A stretch of DNA of 64,000 nucleotides from Alphaproteobacteria bacterium (lineage in GTDB: Bacteria; Pseudomonadota; Alphaproteobacteria; Rs-D84), in NCBI GenBank assembly GCA_009784275.1, contig WRCA01000001.1, positions 62,404 through 126,403 on the forward strand, written 5' to 3'. Shown piece after piece: positions 859 through 33,487 of the stretch (positions are counted from its first letter, which is position 1; the number at the start of each line of letters is the position of its first letter). A program made the position numbers and the translations under genes. The notes beneath the pieces are model-generated. The model was not told the origin of the DNA. It ran no database searches and was given only the letters and a program-made list of their open reading frames with translations.

Positions 859-2214
859 ATGTCGAAAAAGAACAAAACTAGCAAATGCACATTCTTCAAA
901 TTCTTTTTATTTTTCTTGTTTTGTTCAATTACGCCCGCTATCAGCGCATGCAATCCTGGATGTTTTGATAACGGAATAGATTGTGAACCATGCTTAACAG
1001 GAACATATTCCGAAAATGGCGATACATGCATCAGCTGCCCCAATGGAAAGACTGGAAATATTACTGTTGGTTCTACATACTGCGTCAATTACATAAATTT
1101 GAAAAGCAGCACCAACGCGTCAGTAATATTAAGAGCAAATAAAAATACTACGCCCAACTTGTGCATAGAAACAAATAGTGGGGATAAATACTACGCTGAT
1201 CTGTCATCTATTCTTACTGGCAAATTCAAGATAATTCATAACAGCACAGCTTACTCTGTCGTGGAACCCGCCGGGAAACTGGCCAGTGAATGCGGTATTC
1301 CTGATCGCGGTTTTCAAGTGACCTTGCAGGGTATGTTTACAAATAACACTTTTAGTTTCGAAATTTCTTCACAGGGAAATTTCCAAGTAGATTGGGGTGA
1401 TGGTACAGCAATACAACAAATAAACAAAGCGAATACCACAAAAACTACTTATTCGCATACATATACTTTTTCTGGTGGTGGAACCAAGGACTACATCGTA
1501 ACTTTAACTGGCCAGGCGACGGGACATAGCTCTGGCATTATGGCGCCAGCGATATCTTTTGAAAATTCTTTCAGCAGGAGTAAAATAGTCGCTATCACCG
1601 GCGATCTGGGTGCGATATTTCCGATATTGGGCAACCCCGTTGGCAGCACAATCGGCAGTCCACAGTTTTATCAAACATTCTATGGTTGCAGTGGTCTTAC
1701 TAAAATACCGGACAACCTGTTTGCCGGTCTTAATGGCCCTCCGCTGACTTTTATGTTTTATGGCACATTCCAAAACTGCACTGGTCTTACCAAGATACCA
1801 GCCGATTTGTTTGCCAGTGTAAAAGGCGCACCAGCGAATGGTATGTTCTATGCTACATTTCAGGGCTGTACTGGTTTGAAAGGAGAAATACCAGGCAGCT
1901 TGTTTGCAGGAATCAAGGGCGCGCCAATAAGCTGGATGTTTGGGCTTACATTTTCTGGATGCAGCGGTTTAACCAGCATTGGCGATGGATTATTCGATGG
2001 CATATCAGGAGCAATGGCAAGCTATGCATTCACAAGCACATTTGATGGATGTGCTAATCTTACTGGGCCATCAGCAACAACCAAAGGCAGCAACGGCATC
2101 AGAAAACCTTTATACCAGGAATGGCCATCAGCGTTAACTGGCCAAGTCGGAAACTGTTACACCGGCGCGAACAAACTTACTGATTGGGGCAGCATTCCAG
2201 CAGCATGGAAATAA
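859..2214 (+). CDS. secreted multidomain surface protein: Cys-rich module, PKD-like domain and ~30-aa FxxTFxGCxGLTxIP repeats (paralogue A)
   Basis: 451-aa ORF with SD gggagag upstream and a hydrophobic signal peptide. The Cys-rich module reads CNPGCFDNGIDCEPCLTGTYSENGDTCISCPNGKTG. A PKD-like signature reads FQVDWGDGT...YSHTYTF...YIVTLTG. Four to five repeats of about 30 aa follow. A paralogue lies at 29294-30229. Confidence 0.85.
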   Translation: MSKKNKTSKCTFFKFFLFFLFCSITPAISACNPGCFDNGIDCEPCLTGTYSENGDTCISCPNGKTGNITVGSTYCVNYINLKSSTNASVILRANKNTTPNLCIETNSGDKYYADLSSILTGKFKIIHNSTAYSVVEPAGKLASECGIPDRGFQVTLQGMFTNNTFSFEISSQGNFQVDWGDGTAIQQINKANTTKTTYSHTYTFSGGGTKDYIVTLTGQATGHSSGIMAPAISFENSFSRSKIVAITGDLGAIFPILGNPVGSTIGSPQFYQTFYGCSGLTKIPDNLFAGLNGPPLTFMFYGTFQNCTGLTKIPADLFASVKGAPANGMFYATFQGCTGLKGEIPGSLFAGIKGAPISWMFGLTFSGCSGLTSIGDGLFDGISGAMASYAFTSTFDGCANLTGPSATTKGSNGIRKPLYQEWPSALTGQVGNCYTGANKLTDWGSIPAAWK

Positions 2215-2288
2215 ATAAGAATATAGCCCTATTCGTAAATTATGCCAGAAATAGTATAATTGCATTGCGGAATCAAAAAGGAGCAAAA

Positions 2289-2486
2289 ATGAAAATGTGG
2301 AAAAACTATGTGATAAAACCATTGGTTTTAATAGGGGCCTTGAACTGGGGATTCATAGGTGCATTCAACTATGATGTTCTGGCGGCTATTTTTCAAAATG
2401 TAACAATGCTGCGCATCGTTGATATCTTGATCGGCCTTGCTGCGGTCGCATGCATCGTAATGTGGTTCATGGGTAAAGATGAGTAA
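2289..2486 (+). CDS. DUF378-family small membrane protein
   Basis: MKMWKNYVIKPLVLIGALNWGFIGAFNYDVLAAIF... matches the DUF378 pattern (GALNWG..G.F.fD.v). SD aaaggag lies upstream of the ATG at 2289. The ORF-track start at 2184 is judged an upstream extension. Confidence 0.75.
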   Translation: MKMWKNYVIKPLVLIGALNWGFIGAFNYDVLAAIFQNVTMLRIVDILIGLAAVACIVMWFMGKDE

Positions 2487-27912: not shown

Positions 27913-27942
27913 TTGATTAAGAATTCGCTTTTATAGTATAAT
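27913..27942 (+). promoter_or_regulatory. sigma70-like promoter TTGATT-18nt-TATAAT placed for a leaderless transcript
   Basis: The -10 hexamer ends 6 nt before the ATG at 27949, and there is no SD between them. Confidence 0.45.
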
Positions 27943-27948
27943 TTTCCC

Positions 27949-29292
27949 ATGACAGCAAAGTTTAAAGTTTCCATAATCGCAATAGCGGCATCTTTGGTGT
28001 CGTTTTCTAATTCCATTGCTGCTGTCCCCAAAAAAATTCCTGCATCTACTATTAGCGCCCCTATTGCGCGCAGTGCCGCCAGTCAGCCGCGCGCTTCAAC
28101 ACAAACCTCCTTGGCTCTGTCGCGAATGCCTTCCTTTAAACTAGGTTCCGGCACAAACATTCCTGGTGGCGGTGGTTATGTAGACCTGTCTAATTATATA
28201 ACCATAAGCGAATTCAATAACTTTCAAGATGTTATCTATAACATAATAGATGGCATAGGCGACGGAGATACCGGTGCACAAGGCGCGACAGGTGCCCAGG
28301 GTCCGCAAGGCTCACAAGGCGCAACTGGTCTGCAGGGACCACAGGGCGCAAGCGAAGGCGGTTTTGGCGCACAAGGTGATATTGGTCCGCAAGGATCAAA
28401 GGGGGATCAAGGCAATACCGGCACGCAGGGCGCGCGAGGATTTCAAGGTGACAATGGTACCCCAGGTATAAAAGGTGATCAAGGGGATACAGGCGCACAA
28501 GGCGCAACTGGCGCGCAAGGTCCGACCGGAGAAGGAATAGGGATTCCTGGGTCCCAAGGAGAGCAAGGTACACAAGGTGTAACTGGGACACAAGGTTTTC
28601 AGGGTGCAAACGGAGCACAAGGCGTAACGGGCACAACTGGTCCGCAAGGCTATACCGGTGCAATGGGTCCACAGGGACATAATGGTGCGGACGGAGCCCA
28701 AGGTTATCAAGGCGAACCGGGAGTTGGCGCAAAAGGTGACCAAGGATATCAGGGTCAGAAAGGTGAATCTGGCGAAGGCATTGGAATTGCCGGACCACAA
28801 GGTCATCAGGGTGGACCAGGCGCACAGGGGAACCAAGGTTACCAAGGAGAATTGGGGGTTGGCGCGAAAGGCGATCAGGGCCATACCGGGGTGCAGGGTG
28901 CGACAGGCCAACAGGGATCGCAAGGAACCCAAGGCGCACAAGGCGCGGATGGTATGGGCTCGCAAGGCTTACAAGGTGTCCAAGGTGATGCCGGCGTCCA
29001 AGGTATAAAAGGCGATCAGGGGGATATCGGCGCACAAGGCAACCAAGGTTATACCGGCACGATAGGCCCGCAAGGCTATAACGGCGACCAAGGCCTGCAG
29101 GGATTCCAAGGCAATACTGGTAATACCGGAGCACAAGGACATCAAGGGTTCCAAGGCTATACCCCTGCAATCGGCACAACGTCCGGTACTATTGCCGGCG
29201 GCGATGACGATCGGTTCGATACTGTCCCAGATTTGCCCGGGGCGCCGGCAGGTACGCCACCCGCGGGTCGCGTTTATGTCTGGGTGCAATAA
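27949..29292 (+). CDS. secreted collagen-like (Gly-X-Y) repeat protein, paralogue 2 of 3
   Basis: 447 aa with the same N-module (…[29 protein letters not shown]) followed by G-X-Y repeats. It contains no Cys. The C-terminal tail reads [15 protein letters not shown].... Confidence 0.9.
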
Positions 29293-29293
29293 T

Positions 29294-30229
29294 ATGAAAA
29301 ATATTTGCAAATATTTTTTCCTTTTTCTGATTCCTATAATTTTCATTAGTGATGCACATGCAGCAAGCAGCTGTGAACCGGGGTGTCATTTGGATGGGGG
29401 AATATGCAATCCATGCGACACAGGGACATATGAAAACAATGGCAACTGCATCGCATGCCCGGCGGGACAGACGGGCAATATCTTGACCGGCGCAACATCT
29501 TGCGTTAATTACAGAACTTGGAATACCAGCAATGGCGTGTCGGCATTCTTGCGTTCGACAAAAACCACAACGCCCAGCTTGATGATAAAGGATTCAGTCG
29601 GCGGTATTTATTACGGCAATTTATCCAGCACATTGCCCGGAGTATTCAAACTGGTGCATAACGGCACGTTGTATTCATTGGCAGAGCAAGGCAAGCTGCA
29701 ATCTTCTTGCGGCGGCATACCATCAGGTTTTCGAGTGATGCTGGACGGGATAAATCCCAGCGATACTTTCAACTTTCAAATATCAGCGCCCGGCAATTAT
29801 GCAATTCACTGGGGCGACGGCAACATGGATACAGTTAACAAAGCTGGCACAGCATTGACGACATATTCGCATGTGTATGCAGCCGGTGGAAATTATACGG
29901 TGACAATCGGCGGCGGCGCGACCGGGTATAGCAACAATACGACGACCGCGGCGATAAGTTTTTATAACTCGATAAACAAAAATAAAATTGTCGGCATTGA
30001 TGGCGACCTGGGCGCGATATTCCCGATACTGAATACATCCGATACCGGCAGCCCGCGGTTTTACAGAACATTCAAGGATTGCATCAATATGGCCGGCGAA
30101 GTTCCCAGCGATTTGTTTGCTGGAATTGTCGGCTTGCCGGTAACAAACATGTTTGCTGAAACATTCATGGGATGCACAAGTATCGATAGCATAGGCGACG
30201 GTCTGTTCGATGGTCTGATCGCTCAATAA
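29294..30229 (+). CDS. Cys-rich / PKD-like / 30-aa-repeat protein, truncated paralogue B
   Basis: The ATG lies 1 nt after the collagen gene stop. Signal peptide MKNICKYFFLFLIPIIFISDAHA, Cys module CEPGCHLDGGICNPCDTGTYENNGNCIACPAGQTG, and PKD-like HWGDGN...YSHVYAAGGNYTVTIGG. It has two repeats and stops after GDGLFDGLIAQ. Confidence 0.85.
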   Translation: MKNICKYFFLFLIPIIFISDAHAASSCEPGCHLDGGICNPCDTGTYENNGNCIACPAGQTGNILTGATSCVNYRTWNTSNGVSAFLRSTKTTTPSLMIKDSVGGIYYGNLSSTLPGVFKLVHNGTLYSLAEQGKLQSSCGGIPSGFRVMLDGINPSDTFNFQISAPGNYAIHWGDGNMDTVNKAGTALTTYSHVYAAGGNYTVTIGGGATGYSNNTTTAAISFYNSINKNKIVGIDGDLGAIFPILNTSDTGSPRFYRTFKDCINMAGEVPSDLFAGIVGLPVTNMFAETFMGCTSIDSIGDGLFDGLIAQ

Positions 30230-30239
30230 GAAGGGTATA

Positions 30240-31619
30240 ATGTTTTATAAAAAATTATTCTTATTAGCGTTTTTGTTTTTTGCGACCATTGGTATTGCAG
30301 TCGCCGATCCCGATACGAACCAAGGCAAAGGCCTTGCGTTGGGCAATCAAGAGCCGACAGAAATTTTGGTAAAGTTTGTACAGAATGTTGGCAAAGGCCA
30401 AGTGCCAGAATTGTCCGATGCAACAGAGGTCGGCAGCATCCCGCAAATTGGAGTAAAAATATTAAAGGTCAAAAATCCAAAAGCCATCGCAAAACTGTTG
30501 GAACATAACAAGCATGTCGTATACGCCGAACCGAACTTTATTATGCACTTCAACATCATTCCAAATGATCCGCAATGGAAATCACAATCAGCAGCACTGA
30601 ACATCATTAACGCACCGGCGGGCTGGGATATCACCACCGGTGTTGGCAGTCCCATTATCGCCATAGTCGACAGTGGCGTCGCGAGCGGCCATACCGACTT
30701 GCCTCTGCTGTTACCGGGCTATGCGGCCGTTTCTGGTCTTTCACCAAATAACGACAAGGTGGGACATGGCACCGGTGTTGCCGGCACTGCGGGCATGATT
30801 GGGAACAATGGAATCGGCGGCGCGGGCATAAACTGGAACGCACAAATTCTGCCGGTCAAAATTGACGATGCCAATGGCACAATAACGGTCGCCAATGTTG
30901 CAAAAGGCGTTATATGGGCATCAGACAATAACGCAAAGGTCATGAATCTTTCTTTGGGGACTACATCAGACAGTGTGACATTGAAAAACTCCATAGATTA
31001 TGCTTATAACAAAGGCGTCGCTATTTTCGCGGCGACCGGTAACGATGGAAAAAACAGCATCGATTGGCCTGCGCGATATCCCAACGTTATCGCTGTCGGC
31101 AGCACAGGCAACGGCACAACACGTTATTCATCTTCCAATTACGGACCCGGCATGGACGTAGTGGCCATCAGCAGTTATTACACAACAACAGCCGCGGGCG
31201 GTTGGTTGAATATGGCCGGCACATCATTCGCATCGCCCCAAGCTGCGGGCTTGGCATCGCTGGTCTTTGCGGTTTGGCCCAGTGCGACGCCCGCCCAAGT
31301 ATATGATGTTATTCGGGACGGAGCAACGACACTGGGGGGCGGATATAATCAAGAAACGGGTTATGGACTTATTAATATGAGTGCAACTTTGACGCTGGCC
31401 GTGCAACGGGCTAGCAGCGGCAATAATATCATTTGGCCAGATAGCGCGTTTGAAAATATGTTTTCTGGTTGCACTTCTCTTTCTGGACCATCCGCGAAAT
31501 CGAGCGGTCAGTTTCTTTATCAAATCGCCCCAGCACTTGTTACTGGTGCCTATACCGGCGCCACCGGGCTTTCCGATTATAACCAAATTCCCGCGTCATG
31601 GGGCGGCGGAGGCATGTGA
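30240..31619 (+). CDS. S8 subtilisin-like serine protease with I9-like propeptide and a C-terminal tail homologous to the end of paralogue A
   Basis: 459 aa with a signal peptide. Catalytic triad motifs are AIVDSGV (Asp), HGTGVAG (His) and GTSFASPQAAG (Ser). The last ~65 aa (AFENMFSGCTSLSGPSAKSSG...YNQIPASWGGGGM) align with the C-terminus of the 859-2214 protein. Confidence 0.9.
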   Translation: MFYKKLFLLAFLFFATIGIAVADPDTNQGKGLALGNQEPTEILVKFVQNVGKGQVPELSDATEVGSIPQIGVKILKVKNPKAIAKLLEHNKHVVYAEPNFIMHFNIIPNDPQWKSQSAALNIINAPAGWDITTGVGSPIIAIVDSGVASGHTDLPLLLPGYAAVSGLSPNNDKVGHGTGVAGTAGMIGNNGIGGAGINWNAQILPVKIDDANGTITVANVAKGVIWASDNNAKVMNLSLGTTSDSVTLKNSIDYAYNKGVAIFAATGNDGKNSIDWPARYPNVIAVGSTGNGTTRYSSSNYGPGMDVVAISSYYTTTAAGGWLNMAGTSFASPQAAGLASLVFAVWPSATPAQVYDVIRDGATTLGGGYNQETGYGLINMSATLTLAVQRASSGNNIIWPDSAFENMFSGCTSLSGPSAKSSGQFLYQIAPALVTGAYTGATGLSDYNQIPASWGGGGM

Positions 31620-31665
31620 TTTTTTGTTGAAATTTACCCAGAAATAAATATAATGAGCCCCACAT

Positions 31666-31742
31666 GGATGATTAGCTCAGTTGGTTAGAGCGCTTCGTTC
31701 ACATCGAAGAGGTCGGAGGTTCGAGTCCTCTATCATCCACCA
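31666..31742 (+). tRNA. tRNA-Val (anticodon CAC)
   Basis: Acceptor stem is ggatgat/atcatcc, anticodon arm cttcg-TTCACAT-cgaag, T-arm ggaggttcgagtcctc, and the CCA is encoded. Confidence 0.92.
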
Positions 31743-31767
31743 ACTACTTTGTTATTTTCTTCAAATT

Positions 31768-31789
31768 AAAACCCCGCAAATTGCGGGGT
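31768..31789 (-). terminator. intrinsic terminator of the 31809-32195 gene
   Basis: Hairpin accccgcaaattgcggggt with a T-rich run on the minus strand. Confidence 0.65.
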
Positions 31790-31808
31790 ATAAAATACGC
31801 TGTGAATT

Positions 31809-32195
31809 TTACTTTCTTTCCGAAATGCCTCTTTCCGAAACACCGCGTTCTGGGCGTTGAGTTTTATCATCTTTCATACGCTCTGGCATTTGGATACCGC
31901 AAGTTTCAAATGCTTTTTTCATGCATTCGCGGCTGGCTTCGCGGGCAGCCTTTTCTTCCTCTGTTAATTCTCTTTTATCCGGCAATTGCCCCGACTTTAA
32001 TTCTTCGCCGGATTTTTTCATTTTCATTCCGGACTTCGGACAATCTTGTTCTGCCAGGCAGGCTTTTTGTTCATCAGTGAGTTGTTCCATAAAACTGCCG
32101 ATCTTACCGCCGCTAAATTTTCCATCGGGGACGGCTTCGGCATTCGCCATAACAGGCAGCGTCAATAAAAATGCCATAATAAATATTTTTCTCAT
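31809..32195 (-). CDS. small secreted charged protein (128 aa)
   Basis: The start is set at MRKIFIMAFLLTLPVMANA (signal peptide). The ORF-track start is 32276. Confidence 0.6.
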   Translation of the reverse strand: MRKIFIMAFLLTLPVMANAEAVPDGKFSGGKIGSFMEQLTDEQKACLAEQDCPKSGMKMKKSGEELKSGQLPDKRELTEEEKAAREASRECMKKAFETCGIQMPERMKDDKTQRPERGVSERGISERK

Positions 32196-32350
32196 TTTAT
32201 TTCTCCTTTGCATTCCTGTGCGCATTATACTACATACATACAACATGACACAATTGTTATTAAATTCTTTCGACAAATGTTTTGCGTATATTAAATAAAG
32301 TATTCATTCCTATTTGCTAATCCGCGCAACGTCTATAGAATTTGCTGGAA

Positions 32351-33487
32351 ATGAATACCAAATATCTTTCCGCATCACGGCGCAATTTTTTGAAATACTT
32401 TGATTCGAAGTCTGATATGGATGCGGATTTGGGCATTAGTGTGCTGCCGCATGCTGCAGTTTCCATTAGTAAGCGGGACATAAAATTATCCCCCCAGAAA
32501 ATCAAGAACGTAAAAATTTGGCGCAAGTCACCAAAAGGCGCTGAATACATAGACGAAGATGTTATCTTCCTGGGTTATGCGGAACCTTTCATCGGGCACT
32601 TTCTGGCGGACAGCCTGTCGCGCGCTTGGCCTGTGTTAGAAGAAAAGTATGCTAATTATACCTTTGCCATTGTCAGCGATGGTCCGCTGTCTTCGCGGCT
32701 GCCAATGGACAAGTCCGCGACAAAAGCTTCTGCGGCAGAATTATTTTCGCTTTTGGGTATTAAAAAATTGTTGGTGGTGCAACGGCCGACAGCTTTCAGA
32801 AACTTACTGGTTCCGGATTCTTCTTTCAATTATATGAAAAAGATTTACAATCGGAAATACAGCGATACTTTTGCCAAGATTGCGCAAGCCGTGGAATCGG
32901 ATGAAACACTTCCAAAGAAGATTTATTTATCGCGGACAAAGCTGATTCATAATCCTGTCATTGGCGAATCCCGCATAGAAAAAATTTTCCAAGATAACGG
33001 TTACACTATTATTCACCCACAGGAATTTCCGATAGTCGAACAAATCGCAATGATAAAAAATGCGACCGATATTGCCGGGATAGAAGGAACCGCCCTGCAC
33101 CTTTCATTGTTCGCGCGCGATGGAATTAATTTGATTTGCATACATAGGTATAATGTGCCGATACCAATGCAGATACTTATCGACAAGTTGAAAAATTTCA
33201 ATGCCCAGTATGTCGACGCATCTATCGATCCTTTTTCAAAGGAGAAAAATATTTGTCCGGCATGCATAATCGGCATCAATGAAAACCTGCGCAGGTTTTT
33301 CAACGACAATAATTTTAAGCATAAGGATGATGCGGCCGCCGGCGATGCAGAGATGAAAACTTTCTTGGAAATTTACGCCCAGAATCATCGTATTTTACCA
33401 AAATGGCTTATTAACCTGATGCTGGCATTCGTTACTTCGCGAGAACGGCGACAAAAGCTGCGCAAAAAATTCGCGATTAAGTTTTAG
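32351..33487 (+). CDS. putative glycosyltransferase (GT61/DUF563-like)
   Basis: IYLSRTK...IGESRIEKIFQDNGYTIIHPQEFPIVEQIAMIKNATDIAGIEGTALHLSLF fits the DUF563 C-terminal pattern. The assignment is moderate only. Confidence 0.55.
   Translation: MNTKYLSASRRNFLKYFDSKSDMDADLGISVLPHAAVSISKRDIKLSPQKIKNVKIWRKSPKGAEYIDEDVIFLGYAEPFIGHFLADSLSRAWPVLEEKYANYTFAIVSDGPLSSRLPMDKSATKASAAELFSLLGIKKLLVVQRPTAFRNLLVPDSSFNYMKKIYNRKYSDTFAKIAQAVESDETLPKKIYLSRTKLIHNPVIGESRIEKIFQDNGYTIIHPQEFPIVEQIAMIKNATDIAGIEGTALHLSLFARDGINLICIHRYNVPIPMQILIDKLKNFNAQYVDASIDPFSKEKNICPACIIGINENLRRFFNDNNFKHKDDAAAGDAEMKTFLEIYAQNHRILPKWLINLMLAFVTSRERRQKLRKKFAIKF

What the first reader, a model, noticed from the sequence alone, without database searches (positions are those of the whole stretch)
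30100..31619. S8 protease gene sits exactly inside a split copy of the repeat protein and carries its C-terminal tail
Paralogue A (859-2214) ends ...FSGCSGLTSIGDGLFDGISGAMASYAFTSTFDGCANLTGPSATTKGSNGIRKPLYQEWPSALTGQVGNCYTGANKLTDWGSIPAAWK. Paralogue B stops at ...FMGCTSIDSIGDGLFDGLIAQ. After 10 nt and a frame change, the subtilase gene begins with its own signal peptide. The last ~65 aa of the subtilase (31422-31619) resume the A-type sequence: ...PDSAFENMFSGCTSLSGPSAKSSGQFLYQIAPALVTGAYTGATGLSDYNQIPASWGGGGM. Either a complete protease cassette inserted into the last repeat of a paralogue, or the YTGAxxLxD(Y/W)xxIPAxW tail is a portable C-terminal module, for example a sorting or anchoring signal shared by cargo proteins.
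Basis: seen in the sequence. Interest (0 to 1): 0.7.

Follow-up and report, generated by a model that had tools for sequence, protein, structure and literature searches.

The report
Protease gene inserted into repeat-protein gene
A secreted subtilisin-type protease gene has landed inside a surface repeat-protein gene of a gut alphaproteobacterium, so the protease now reads through into the host gene's last repeat and end-cap; this is a tidy one-off gene-in-gene insertion, not a shared sorting signal.

Summary
B (29297-30229) stops where every relative continues. After 10 nt and a frame change the S8 gene starts (30240). Its last ~63 residues (31428-31616) are the family's last repeat plus C-terminal cap: 66 bits against a family tail profile, while 500 shuffles reach at most 4.8.

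On a 99-position profile of the family's C-terminus, B covers positions 1-35 and the S8 tail covers 41-98. B(1-308) joined to S8(397-459) aligns without a gap across the joint with intact relatives.

The closest S8 relatives (59-65% identical, termite-gut Alphaproteobacteria) end just after the catalytic domain in their own PRLCxCxCK tail. Only the window's protein among 120 S8 homologues has the cap, and none of 262 family proteins has an S8 core. In all tail hits examined, the cap follows repeats, including at internal positions in multi-module proteins. AlphaFold places it inside the repeat domain in A (pLDDT 95-98).

The best reading is a single insertion of a promoterless, 3'-truncated S8 ORF between the penultimate and last repeat of B. 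The portable-signal and gene-fission readings are not supported. The mechanism of insertion and any function of the tail are unknown. This is an ordinary kind of event and a clean example; interest is modest.

The parts
29297..30229 (+). B': truncated repeat-protein gene (310 aa). It has a signal-like N-terminus, a Cys-rich TNFR/ephrin-receptor-like stretch, a beta-sandwich 'WGDG' domain and two repeats. It lacks the family's last repeat and cap.
   Evidence: ORF and translation. 48% identical to A over its full length. Residues 273-307 match positions 1-35 of the 99-position family C-terminus profile, and the protein ends at residue 310. Weak Pfam hits to Ephrin_rec_like and PKD.
30218..30239 (+). 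Left junction. It holds the last B-derived codon (ATC, I308, 30218-30220), then GCT CAA TAA (B' stop at 30227-30229) and the 10-nt spacer gaagggtata carrying a Shine-Dalgarno-like GAAGG.
   Evidence: Sequence. Profile coordinates. No resemblance to the upstream regions of S8 genes in relatives beyond the start codon.
30240..31619 (+). Chimeric ORF S8::B-tail (459 aa plus stop).
   Evidence: ORF. PF22148 and PF00082. Thermitase/Ak.1-type catalytic domain matching PDB subtilases through about residue 383. D144, H176, N268 and S329 are invariant in the alignment of homologues.
30360..30536 (+). Propeptide (fervidolysin N-terminal prodomain type), residues 41-99.
   Evidence: PF22148, 33.5 bits against a cut-off of 21. 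pLDDT 94-96 in the AlphaFold model.
30651..31367 (+). Peptidase S8 catalytic domain, residues 138-376.
   Evidence: PF00082, 145.9 bits. PDB hits 1dbi and 1thm at E about 1e-39 to 1e-40. pLDDT above 90.
31410..31430 (+). Right junction (S8 residues about 391-397, ...RASSGNNI...). Homology to S8 relatives ends at ...LTLAVQRA. Family homology begins at about I397.
   Evidence: Alignment with P0002-P0005. 3' ends of relatives. Profile coordinates. Gapless reconstruction.
31428..31616 (+). B-derived tail on S8 (residues 397-459): the start of the last repeat (AFENMFSGCTSLSGPSA) plus the family cap (...QFLYQIAP...YTGATGLSDYNQIPASW) and a GGGGM end.
   Evidence: 66.1 bits against the family tail profile, with 500 shuffles reaching at most 4.8. 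Matches profile positions 41-98. pLDDT 30-50 on S8, whereas the homologous segment of A has pLDDT 95-98.
859..2214 (+). Paralogue A: an intact family member with five repeats (the fifth being the start of the cap unit), used as the in-genome reference.
27949..29292 (+). Collagen-like gene 4 nt upstream of B'. It is probably the first gene of a coll-B'-S8 operon.
   Evidence: PF01391, 131 bits. Promoter-like site at 27913-27942 and none directly upstream of S8. Homologous collagen-like genes sit next to S8 in relatives.
31666..31742 (+). tRNA-Val(CAC), 47 nt after the S8 stop codon, with its own promoter-like site at 31627-31654. It marks the 3' limit of the locus.

Best explanation
A single DNA insertion placed the coding region of a secreted thermitase-like S8 protease into gene B. 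B encodes a member of a large family of surface repeat proteins of gut Alphaproteobacteria. The insertion sits in the loop between B's penultimate and last repeat.

The inserted segment is about 30221-31427, roughly 1.2 kb. It carries a stop codon for the upstream frame, a Shine-Dalgarno-like sequence, the S8 start codon, the signal peptide, the propeptide and the catalytic domain. It does not carry the S8 gene's own promoter, native Cys-rich C-terminus or stop codon.

Three consequences follow.

- B is truncated to 310 aa and lacks its last repeat and cap.
- The S8 ORF runs in frame into B's last 63 codons and ends at B's old stop codon.
- S8 is now transcribed with the collagen-like gene and B' as one operon.

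The shared tail is the family's structural C-terminal cap, not a sorting signal. On the protease it is most likely a passenger fragment that does not fold on its own.

Shown: the anatomy, the complementarity of the two B pieces, the absence of the tail from all other S8 homologues listed, and the cap's invariable association with repeats. Inferred: that it was one event, the direction (S8 into B), co-transcription, and that the tail has no function.
For: - **Complementary pieces.** On a 99-position profile of the family C-terminus (80 members), B residues 273-307 match positions 1-35 and S8 residues 401-454 match positions 41-98. There is no overlap and at most a few residues are unaccounted for.
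- **Gapless reconstruction.** B(1-308) joined to S8(397-459) gives a 371-aa protein that aligns without a gap at the joint with A, P0131 and P0366.
- **Nearest S8 relatives lack the tail.** P0002-P0005 (59-65% identical, alphaproteobacterial MAGs) are 404-424 aa and end about 15-20 residues after the catalytic domain in PRLCxCxCK.
- **The fusion is unique in what was examined.** Only the window's protein among 120 S8 homologues matches the tail profile. None of 262 family proteins matches the S8 core.
- **The cap is a family feature.** It ends nearly all family members, is preceded by repeats in all tail hits examined from a library of 1.84 billion proteins, and recurs internally in multi-module proteins.
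- **Structure predictions.** AlphaFold models the cap within A's repeat domain at pLDDT 95-98. The same segment on S8 has pLDDT 30-50.
- **Genomic context elsewhere.** No S8 gene lies near family genes in 79 loci from other genomes. No family gene lies next to S8 in four relatives.
- **Operon layout.** Intergenic gaps are 4 and 10 nt, and there is no promoter-like site directly upstream of S8.
- **Assembly support.** The same 7,380 nt, including both junctions, is identical on a second public contig.
Against: - No unsplit orthologue of B and no second genome with the B'-S8 arrangement was found, so the pre-insertion state is reconstructed rather than observed.
- The junctions show no target-site duplication, terminal inverted repeats, attC-like site or mobility gene, so no insertion mechanism can be named.
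- S8 composition is not atypical for the region.
- S8 genes in relatives also neighbour collagen-like genes. The event could therefore be a local operon rearrangement rather than an insertion from elsewhere.
- The tail scores at the 25th percentile of 97 independent family caps, within the normal range, and has no stop codon or frameshift. That fits either a recent event or selection to keep the tail, so 'passenger' is not proven.
- The low pLDDT of the tail on S8 is weak evidence, because the alignment used had no other sequences covering the tail.
Confidence: 0.72

Rival explanations
1. The origin is the same (insertion), but the tail is functional. B' lacks its last repeat and cap, and S8 carries exactly those. 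After separate Sec export the S8 tail could dock onto the open end of B' and complete its repeat domain in trans. That would tether the protease non-covalently to the B' surface protein.
For: - The two pieces are exactly complementary.
- The genes are 10 nt apart on what is probably one transcript, so the products would be made together.
- Both proteins have signal-like N-termini.
- Both ORFs are intact, and the tail is as family-like as a quarter of genuine caps.
- In A the cap is an integral part of the repeat domain, so an uncapped B' would probably expose core residues.
Against: - There is no direct evidence for any interaction.
- All the supporting observations follow automatically from a recent insertion.
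- It is a single occurrence with no conservation in other genomes.
- No complex prediction could be run.
Confidence: 0.12
2. The arrangement arose in several steps within an ancestral operon that already held S8, a collagen-like gene and B. One route would be a tandem duplication followed by deletions, or a local transposition of S8, rather than one insertion from elsewhere.
For: - S8 is next to a collagen-like gene in four relatives, in the order S8 then collagen-like. In the window the order is collagen-like, B', S8.
- The block 27949-33487 is missing from the syntenic site of the closest syntenic genome found (L089), where the neighbouring block is inverted. The region is therefore rearrangement-prone.
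Against: - A duplication-deletion route needs two independent breakpoints to fall at the same residue of B to give the seamless complementarity seen. A rough estimate of that chance is a few percent.
- No relative shows a family gene next to S8.
Confidence: 0.08
3. The YTGAxxLxD(Y/W)xxIPxxW tail is a portable C-terminal module, such as a sorting, secretion or anchoring signal, attached independently to different cargo proteins including this protease.
For: - The motif is highly conserved and usually sits at the extreme C-terminus, ending in W-K.
- It is present on two otherwise different proteins in this window.
Against: - In all hits examined it follows the family's own repeats.
- It occurs at internal positions, followed by a Gly-rich linker and another module.
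- The piece on S8 includes the start of the last repeat and begins where B breaks off, not at a domain boundary.
- It is modelled as part of the repeat domain.
- It matches no model in NCBIfam or Pfam and has no long hydrophobic stretch (from the sequence).
- It is absent from the other 119 S8 homologues listed.
Confidence: 0.04
4. The arrangement is an assembly chimera, or results from fission of an ancestral repeat-S8-cap fusion protein.
For: The source is a metagenome assembly, and repeat-containing genes are prone to misassembly. No isolate genome is available.
Against: - A chimera would need two misjoins at complementary positions that also preserve an in-frame ORF.
- An identical 7,380-nt stretch occurs on a second contig of different length.
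- No protein with both the repeats and an S8 core exists among 262 family proteins and 120 S8 homologues.
- S8 has its own signal peptide and propeptide, which makes sense only for a free-standing N-terminus.
Confidence: 0.04

Closest known systems
Thermitase / Ak.1-type secreted subtilases (MEROPS S8A) with a fervidolysin-type N-terminal propeptide
   Same: - Signal peptide, PF22148 propeptide and PF00082 catalytic domain.
- D144, H176, N268 and S329 are invariant in the alignment of homologues.
- Best PDB matches are 1dbi and 1thm at E about 1e-39 to 1e-40.
   Different: - Its C-terminal extension is the last repeat plus cap of an unrelated repeat-protein family. Relatives carry a short Cys-rich tail or DUF5011, PKD or similar domains.
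- The gene has no promoter-like site of its own and sits inside another gene.
PARCEL / DUF285 / TIGR02167 repeat-containing surface proteins (Roske et al. 2010, PMC2996958)
   Same: - Tandem amphipathic repeats with an F..(T)F..C..L core in signal-peptide-bearing proteins of host-associated bacteria.
- 16 of 30 family members match TIGR02167, with best E = 1.4e-16.
- The paper also records a PARCEL ORF split into N- and C-terminal portions by an inserted element.
   Different: - The repeat period here is 30-31 residues, not 25-26 (from the sequence).
- A itself scores below the curated cut-off (28.8 against 30) and B does not match.
- No Pfam model covers the repeats.
- The family has a conserved beta-sandwich 'WGDG' domain before the repeats and a conserved cap of about 45 residues after them. 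The keyword hits read in that paper did not mention such a cap.
- Here the insert is a single gene, not a mobile island.
C-terminal capping motifs of leucine-rich-repeat and other solenoid domains (LRRCT-type caps)
   Same: - A non-repeat segment that always terminates the repeat array.
- It is modelled as part of the same domain.
- It recurs at the end of every module in multi-module proteins.
- The family profile has a weak hit to the FLS2 LRR ectodomain, E = 0.0099.
   Different: - No significant sequence or fold match to any solved LRR cap. The best Foldseek E-value against the PDB for the whole model is 0.02.
- 'Cap' describes how it appears to work. It is not a claim of family membership.
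Chimeric bacterial genes created by insertion of one coding region into another (read-through fusion ORFs)
   Same: - The host gene is truncated.
- The incoming ORF is fused in frame to host 3' codons.
- Expression depends on the host promoter.
   Different: - There is no IS element, integron attC site, phage or integrase signature at the junctions.
- The insert is trimmed almost exactly to one ORF.

Membership tests
Peptidase S8 (subtilase) | Pfam PF00082 match above the gathering threshold | tested here: met
   145.9 bits against a cut-off of 21.8, residues 138-376.
Peptidase S8 (subtilase) | Catalytic Asp-His-Ser triad in that order, plus the oxyanion Asn | tested here: met
   D144, H176, N268 and S329 are invariant across 26 homologues and lie within the region aligned to Ak.1 protease 1dbi. 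Their identity as the catalytic residues is inferred from these positions and was not checked residue by residue.
Peptidase S8 (subtilase) | N-terminal propeptide (intramolecular chaperone) and a secretion signal | tested here: met
   PF22148, 33.5 bits against a cut-off of 21. The hydrophobic N-terminus MFYKKLFLLAFLFFATIGIAVA/DP was read from the sequence. No signal-peptide predictor was run.
PARCEL / TIGR02167 (Liste_lipo_26) repeat proteins | TIGR02167 score at or above the curated cut-off of 30 bits | tested here: not met
   A scores 28.8 bits, matching only model positions 1-11. B has no hit. At family level, 16 of 30 relatives match with best E = 1.4e-16. The family is therefore related, but A and B are not members by the curated rule.
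PARCEL / TIGR02167 (Liste_lipo_26) repeat proteins | Tandem canonical 25-26-residue repeats (PMC2996958) | tested here: not met
   Units in A are 30-31 residues, for example FYQTFYGCSGLTKIPDNLFAGLNGPPLTFM.
PARCEL / TIGR02167 (Liste_lipo_26) repeat proteins | Dyad symmetry (palindromic character) of the repeat-coding DNA | not tested
   Not examined.
C-terminal sorting or anchoring signals (LPXTG, PEP-CTERM, GlyGly-CTERM, T9SS CTD and similar) | Match to a known sorting-domain model, or a motif followed by a hydrophobic helix and a basic tail at the extreme C-terminus | tested here: not met
   No such model was hit by A or S8 in NCBIfam or Pfam. The tail has no long hydrophobic stretch (from the sequence).
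C-terminal sorting or anchoring signals (LPXTG, PEP-CTERM, GlyGly-CTERM, T9SS CTD and similar) | Found only at C-termini and on diverse, otherwise unrelated cargo proteins | tested here: not met
   It occurs internally in multi-module proteins. It is always preceded by the same repeats. The only non-repeat carrier is this S8.
Mobile gene cassette or transposable element (integron cassette, IS, MITE) | attC-like or terminal inverted repeats, a target-site duplication, or a recombinase or transposase gene | tested here: not met
   No flanking inverted or direct repeats of note; there is only a 6-nt CAATAA near both junctions. The insert holds nothing but the S8 ORF.
Gut-alphaproteobacterial repeat-plus-cap family (unnamed; A, B and P0122-P0240) | 'WGDG' beta-sandwich domain, then 30-residue F..TF.GC.GLT.IP..LF.GI.GAP repeats, then the LTGPSA...LY..WP...Y..ATGLSDY..IP..W cap | tested here: met
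   A meets all three features. B has the first two only. The S8 tail supplies the third. B and the S8 tail together meet the full definition.

The most novel reading that the evidence does not exclude
The split is used rather than merely tolerated. The cap fragment on the protease completes the uncapped repeat domain of B' in trans. This would be natural split-solenoid complementation, loading a secreted S8 protease non-covalently onto a cell-surface repeat protein made from the same transcript. It would be a tethering mode created in one step by a gene-in-gene insertion.
Probability: 0.1. Interest if true: 0.65.

Novelty: new member of a known kind. Interest (0 to 1): 0.3.

Why it matters
The locus is a clear, almost residue-exact example of how one insertion can create a chimeric secreted enzyme and a truncated surface protein in a bacterial genome. 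It also shows that a sequence tail shared by two proteins need not be a signal.

The analysis defines the conserved C-terminal cap of a large repeat-protein family in gut Alphaproteobacteria (Candidatus Enterousia and MAGs from termite, ruminant and human guts).

If the speculative trans-complementation held, the locus would be a natural template for split-repeat tethering of enzymes. Otherwise its value is mainly for annotation: B' should be flagged as truncated, and the S8 C-terminus should be annotated as derived from B.

Tried and rejected
- **Unsplit B orthologues or a second B'-S8 locus: none found.**
  - The nearest proteins are only 45-47% identical to B.
  - A JGI metagenome scan with B found nothing.
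  - A DNA pattern for the predicted unsplit junction found nothing.
  - A word-indexed search with the tail alone returned no candidates.
- **Synteny.**
  - The closest syntenic genome found (L089) lacks the whole block 27949-33487 at this site, so it cannot show the ancestral state.
- **Compositional foreignness of S8.**
  - No anomaly was seen.
- **Mobile-element signatures at the junctions.**
  - None were found. The 6-nt CAATAA near both junctions is most likely chance, and a target-site-duplication model built on it would leave a stop codon in B.
- **Fold of the repeat domain.**
  - The Foldseek PDB search with the A model gave nothing significant, best E = 0.02.
  - The profile search against PDB sequences gave only a marginal LRR hit.
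- **Portable-module hypothesis: rejected.**
  - Ten tail hits that looked as if they had few repeats turned out to be ordinary divergent family members, on Pfam scan and on reading seven of the sequences.
- **Other cases of the same kind.**
  - A scan of 79 family loci from other genomes found no S8 nearby. The atypical cap-bearing ORFs appear to be divergent repeats my pattern missed, contig-end fragments or frame-shifted genes.
- **Read-through or frameshift joining of B' and S8: rejected.**
  - A second in-frame stop follows the TAA, and S8 has its own signal peptide.
Full report
**1. What is in the sequence**

Gene A (859-2214, 451 aa) and gene B are paralogues, 48% identical over the whole of B. 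B most plausibly starts at the ATG at 29297 and ends with TAA at 30227-30229 (310 aa).

B ends ...FMGCTSIDSIGDGLFDGLIAQ. Ten nucleotides later (gaagggtata, Shine-Dalgarno-like) and in another frame, an ATG at 30240 opens a 459-codon ORF. That ORF has these parts:

- a hydrophobic N-terminus that looks like a signal peptide (read from the sequence);
- a fervidolysin-type propeptide (PF22148, residues 41-99);
- a Peptidase_S8 domain (PF00082, residues 138-376, 145.9 bits).

D144, H176, N268 and S329 are invariant among homologues. The best solved relatives are Ak.1 protease and thermitase, and their match ends near residue 383.

**2. Is the tail similarity real?**

Yes.

- S8 residues 403-454 align with A residues 390-450 at 44% identity, pairwise E = 6e-10.
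- Against all six frames of the window the match has E about 1e-7, and there is no third copy.
- A 60-position profile built from 80 other family members scores the S8 tail at 66.1 bits and A at 75.4 bits. The best of 500 shuffles of the tail scores 4.8 bits.
- At DNA level the tails of A and S8 are only loosely similar. The S8 tail was therefore not copied recently from A.

**3. What the tail is**

A belongs to a very large family, with 626 hits at E <= 1e-3. Members occur in many gut Alphaproteobacteria: Candidatus Enterousia and MAGs from termite, ruminant and human guts. Several copies can occur per genome.

The module is a beta-sandwich domain with a WGDG motif, then 30-31-residue repeats (F..TF.GC.GLT.IP..LF.GI.GAP...M), then a conserved end: F..TF..C..LTGPSA..NGQYLYEIWP.AT..QVG.MY..ATGLSDY..IP..W(K).

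Four results show that this end is a structural cap and not a signal.

- In multi-module proteins it recurs at the end of every module, followed by a GGGG or GGLG linker and the next WGDG domain. Up to five modules occur in one protein.
- AlphaFold models A residues 150-451 as confidently folded, with the tail at pLDDT 95-98.
- No Pfam or NCBIfam sorting-signal model matches it.
- A phmmer search with the S8 tail against 1.84 billion representative proteins found 305 hits at E <= 1e-3. The top 150 fall into two groups. In one group the cap follows the family repeats. In the other only the F..C..L repeat motif matches. Ten that looked atypical gave no unrelated domain on Pfam scan, and the seven read in full were ordinary divergent members.

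The repeats are distantly related to PARCEL / TIGR02167 repeats. Sixteen of 30 relatives match that model, with best E = 1.4e-16. A itself scores 28.8 against a cut-off of 30, and the period is 30-31 residues rather than 25-26 (PMC2996958).

No solved structure resembles the model. The best Foldseek E-value is 0.02, and a profile search gives only a marginal hit to the FLS2 LRR ectodomain.

**4. The two pieces of B fit together**

On a 99-position profile of the family's C-terminal region, B residues 273-307 occupy positions 1-35 and B stops three residues later. S8 residues 401-454 occupy positions 41-98.

Counting residues through the inter-repeat loop, the best reconstruction is ...GLFDGLI(308) joined to I(397)IWPDSAFENMF.... 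This restores the family's usual eight residues between the conserved L/I and F.

The resulting 371-aa protein aligns with A, P0131 and P0366 without a gap at the joint. If the truncation of B and the acquisition of a tail by S8 were independent events, I estimate only a few-percent chance that they would abut this closely.

**5. The protease did not have this tail before**

- The closest S8 relatives are P0002-P0005, 59-65% identical, from alphaproteobacterial MAGs (P0005 from a termite-gut MAG). They are 404-424 aa and end 15-20 residues after the catalytic domain in PRLCxCxCK.
- Homology between the window's S8 and these relatives runs from the start codon to ...LTLAVQRA (residue about 390). 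The upstream DNA is unrelated.
- Only the window's protein among the 120 S8 homologues listed matches the tail profile. None of 262 family proteins matches the S8 core.
- In four relatives no family gene lies next to S8. In 79 family loci from other genomes no S8 gene lies nearby.

Gene fission of an ancestral fusion protein therefore has no support.

**6. Most likely history and consequences**

One insertion of about 1.2 kb (roughly 30221-31427) explains everything. The insert carried a stop codon for the upstream frame, a ribosome-binding site and the S8 ORF. It lacked the S8 native 3' end, so translation continues in frame through B's last 63 codons to B's old stop codon.

There is no promoter-like site directly upstream of S8. 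The collagen-like gene (27949-29292), B' and S8 are separated by 4 and 10 nt. S8 is therefore probably expressed from the upstream promoter as part of an operon; this is inferred.

The mechanism is unknown. No inverted repeats, target duplication, attC-like site or mobility gene are present, and the composition is unremarkable.

The whole block 27949-33487 is absent from the syntenic site in the closest syntenic genome found, where the adjacent block is inverted. A tRNA-Val gene follows S8 directly. The region is thus accessory and prone to rearrangement.

S8 genes in relatives are immediately followed by a short collagen-like gene. A local rearrangement within an operon is therefore a minor alternative to insertion from elsewhere.

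**7. Does the tail do anything on the protease?**

This is unknown.

- On S8 the segment is predicted to be disordered (pLDDT 30-50). That alignment contained no other tail sequences, so the evidence is weak.
- The tail is intact and scores at the 25th percentile of 97 independent family caps. This fits either a recent event or selection to keep it.
- The most interesting reading not excluded is that the tail docks onto uncapped B' and tethers the protease to it. I put this at about 10%.

**8. Artefact check**

The same 7,380 nt, including both junctions, is identical on a second public contig (ERZ27257304 k141_1693273, 88.7 kb), which differs in length from the 196.9-kb contig on record for the protein. 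The reads were not examined. A double misjoin that preserves complementarity and reading frame is unlikely.

**9. Verdict**

- The insertion alternative is supported, with two corrections: the insert is not a complete cassette, and the break is between repeats.
- The portable-signal alternative is rejected.
- This is a new instance of a known kind of event, a chimeric gene made by insertion. It involves an uncharacterised repeat family whose cap is defined here.
- Interest is modest (0.3).

Noticed in passing
L001 6001-7258; L002 373-2172; L003 2141-3918; L004 2252-3975; window 27949-29292: In four relatives the S8 gene is immediately followed by a short collagen-like gene (162-181 aa where complete). 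The S8 proteins end in PRLCxCxCK... and the collagen-like proteins end in GIC(M/L)CECDKM, so both partners carry Cys-x-Cys tails. The window's S8 has lost that tail. The window's collagen-like gene (447 aa) lies upstream of B' and ends differently. This suggests a protease-collagen-like functional pair.
   Followed up: partly
window 27949-33487; L089 1777-7858: The block holding the collagen-like gene, B', S8, tRNA-Val, a 155-aa ORF and a GT61 glycosyltransferase is absent from the syntenic site in the closest syntenic genome found. There, Mpg is followed directly by an inverted copy of the KdtA-to-37259 block.
   Followed up: partly
window 859-2214 (A residues 150-451); proteins P0241-P0243 and P0196: The repeat domain (30-31-residue period) is modelled at pLDDT above 90 but has no significant structural match in the PDB. 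Relatives contain up to five [WGDG domain, repeats, cap] modules joined by Gly-rich linkers. The S8 tail's ...WGGGGM end resembles these internal cap-linker junctions.
   Followed up: partly
window 30224-30229 and 31421-31426: The hexamer CAATAA occurs close to both junctions of the inferred insert. It is probably chance. Treating it as a target-site duplication would leave a stop codon in the reconstructed B.
   Followed up: yes
window 859-2214 and 29297-30229: Public gene calls start both repeat-protein genes at internal Met codons (317 aa for A, 163 aa for B). This drops the signal peptide and the Cys-rich N-terminal region. A's N-terminus ends ...PAIS-AC, which resembles a lipoprotein box.
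   Followed up: no
protein P0350 (576 aa): A distant F..C..L repeat protein carries two cap-like segments (...TGCTKLYNYPLIPEDWGG and ...CENLLDWEEIPDDWKG). The cap type therefore seems older and more widespread than the alphaproteobacterial family.
   Followed up: no
window 31627-31654, 31666-31742 and 31771-31789: tRNA-Val(CAC) has a near-consensus promoter-like site (11 of 12 matches) starting 8 nt after the S8 stop codon. It is followed by a G+C-rich hairpin that could terminate transcription in both directions.
   Followed up: no
window 2184-2486: A DUF378 membrane-protein ORF overlaps the 3' end of gene A by 31 nt in another frame.
   Followed up: no
L005-L009: The closest S8 sequences outside Alphaproteobacteria are in Oscillospiraceae, Clostridiales and Coriobacteriia MAGs from the same series as the termite-gut MAGs (49-60% identity). 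This suggests exchange of this S8 subfamily within that gut community.
   Followed up: no
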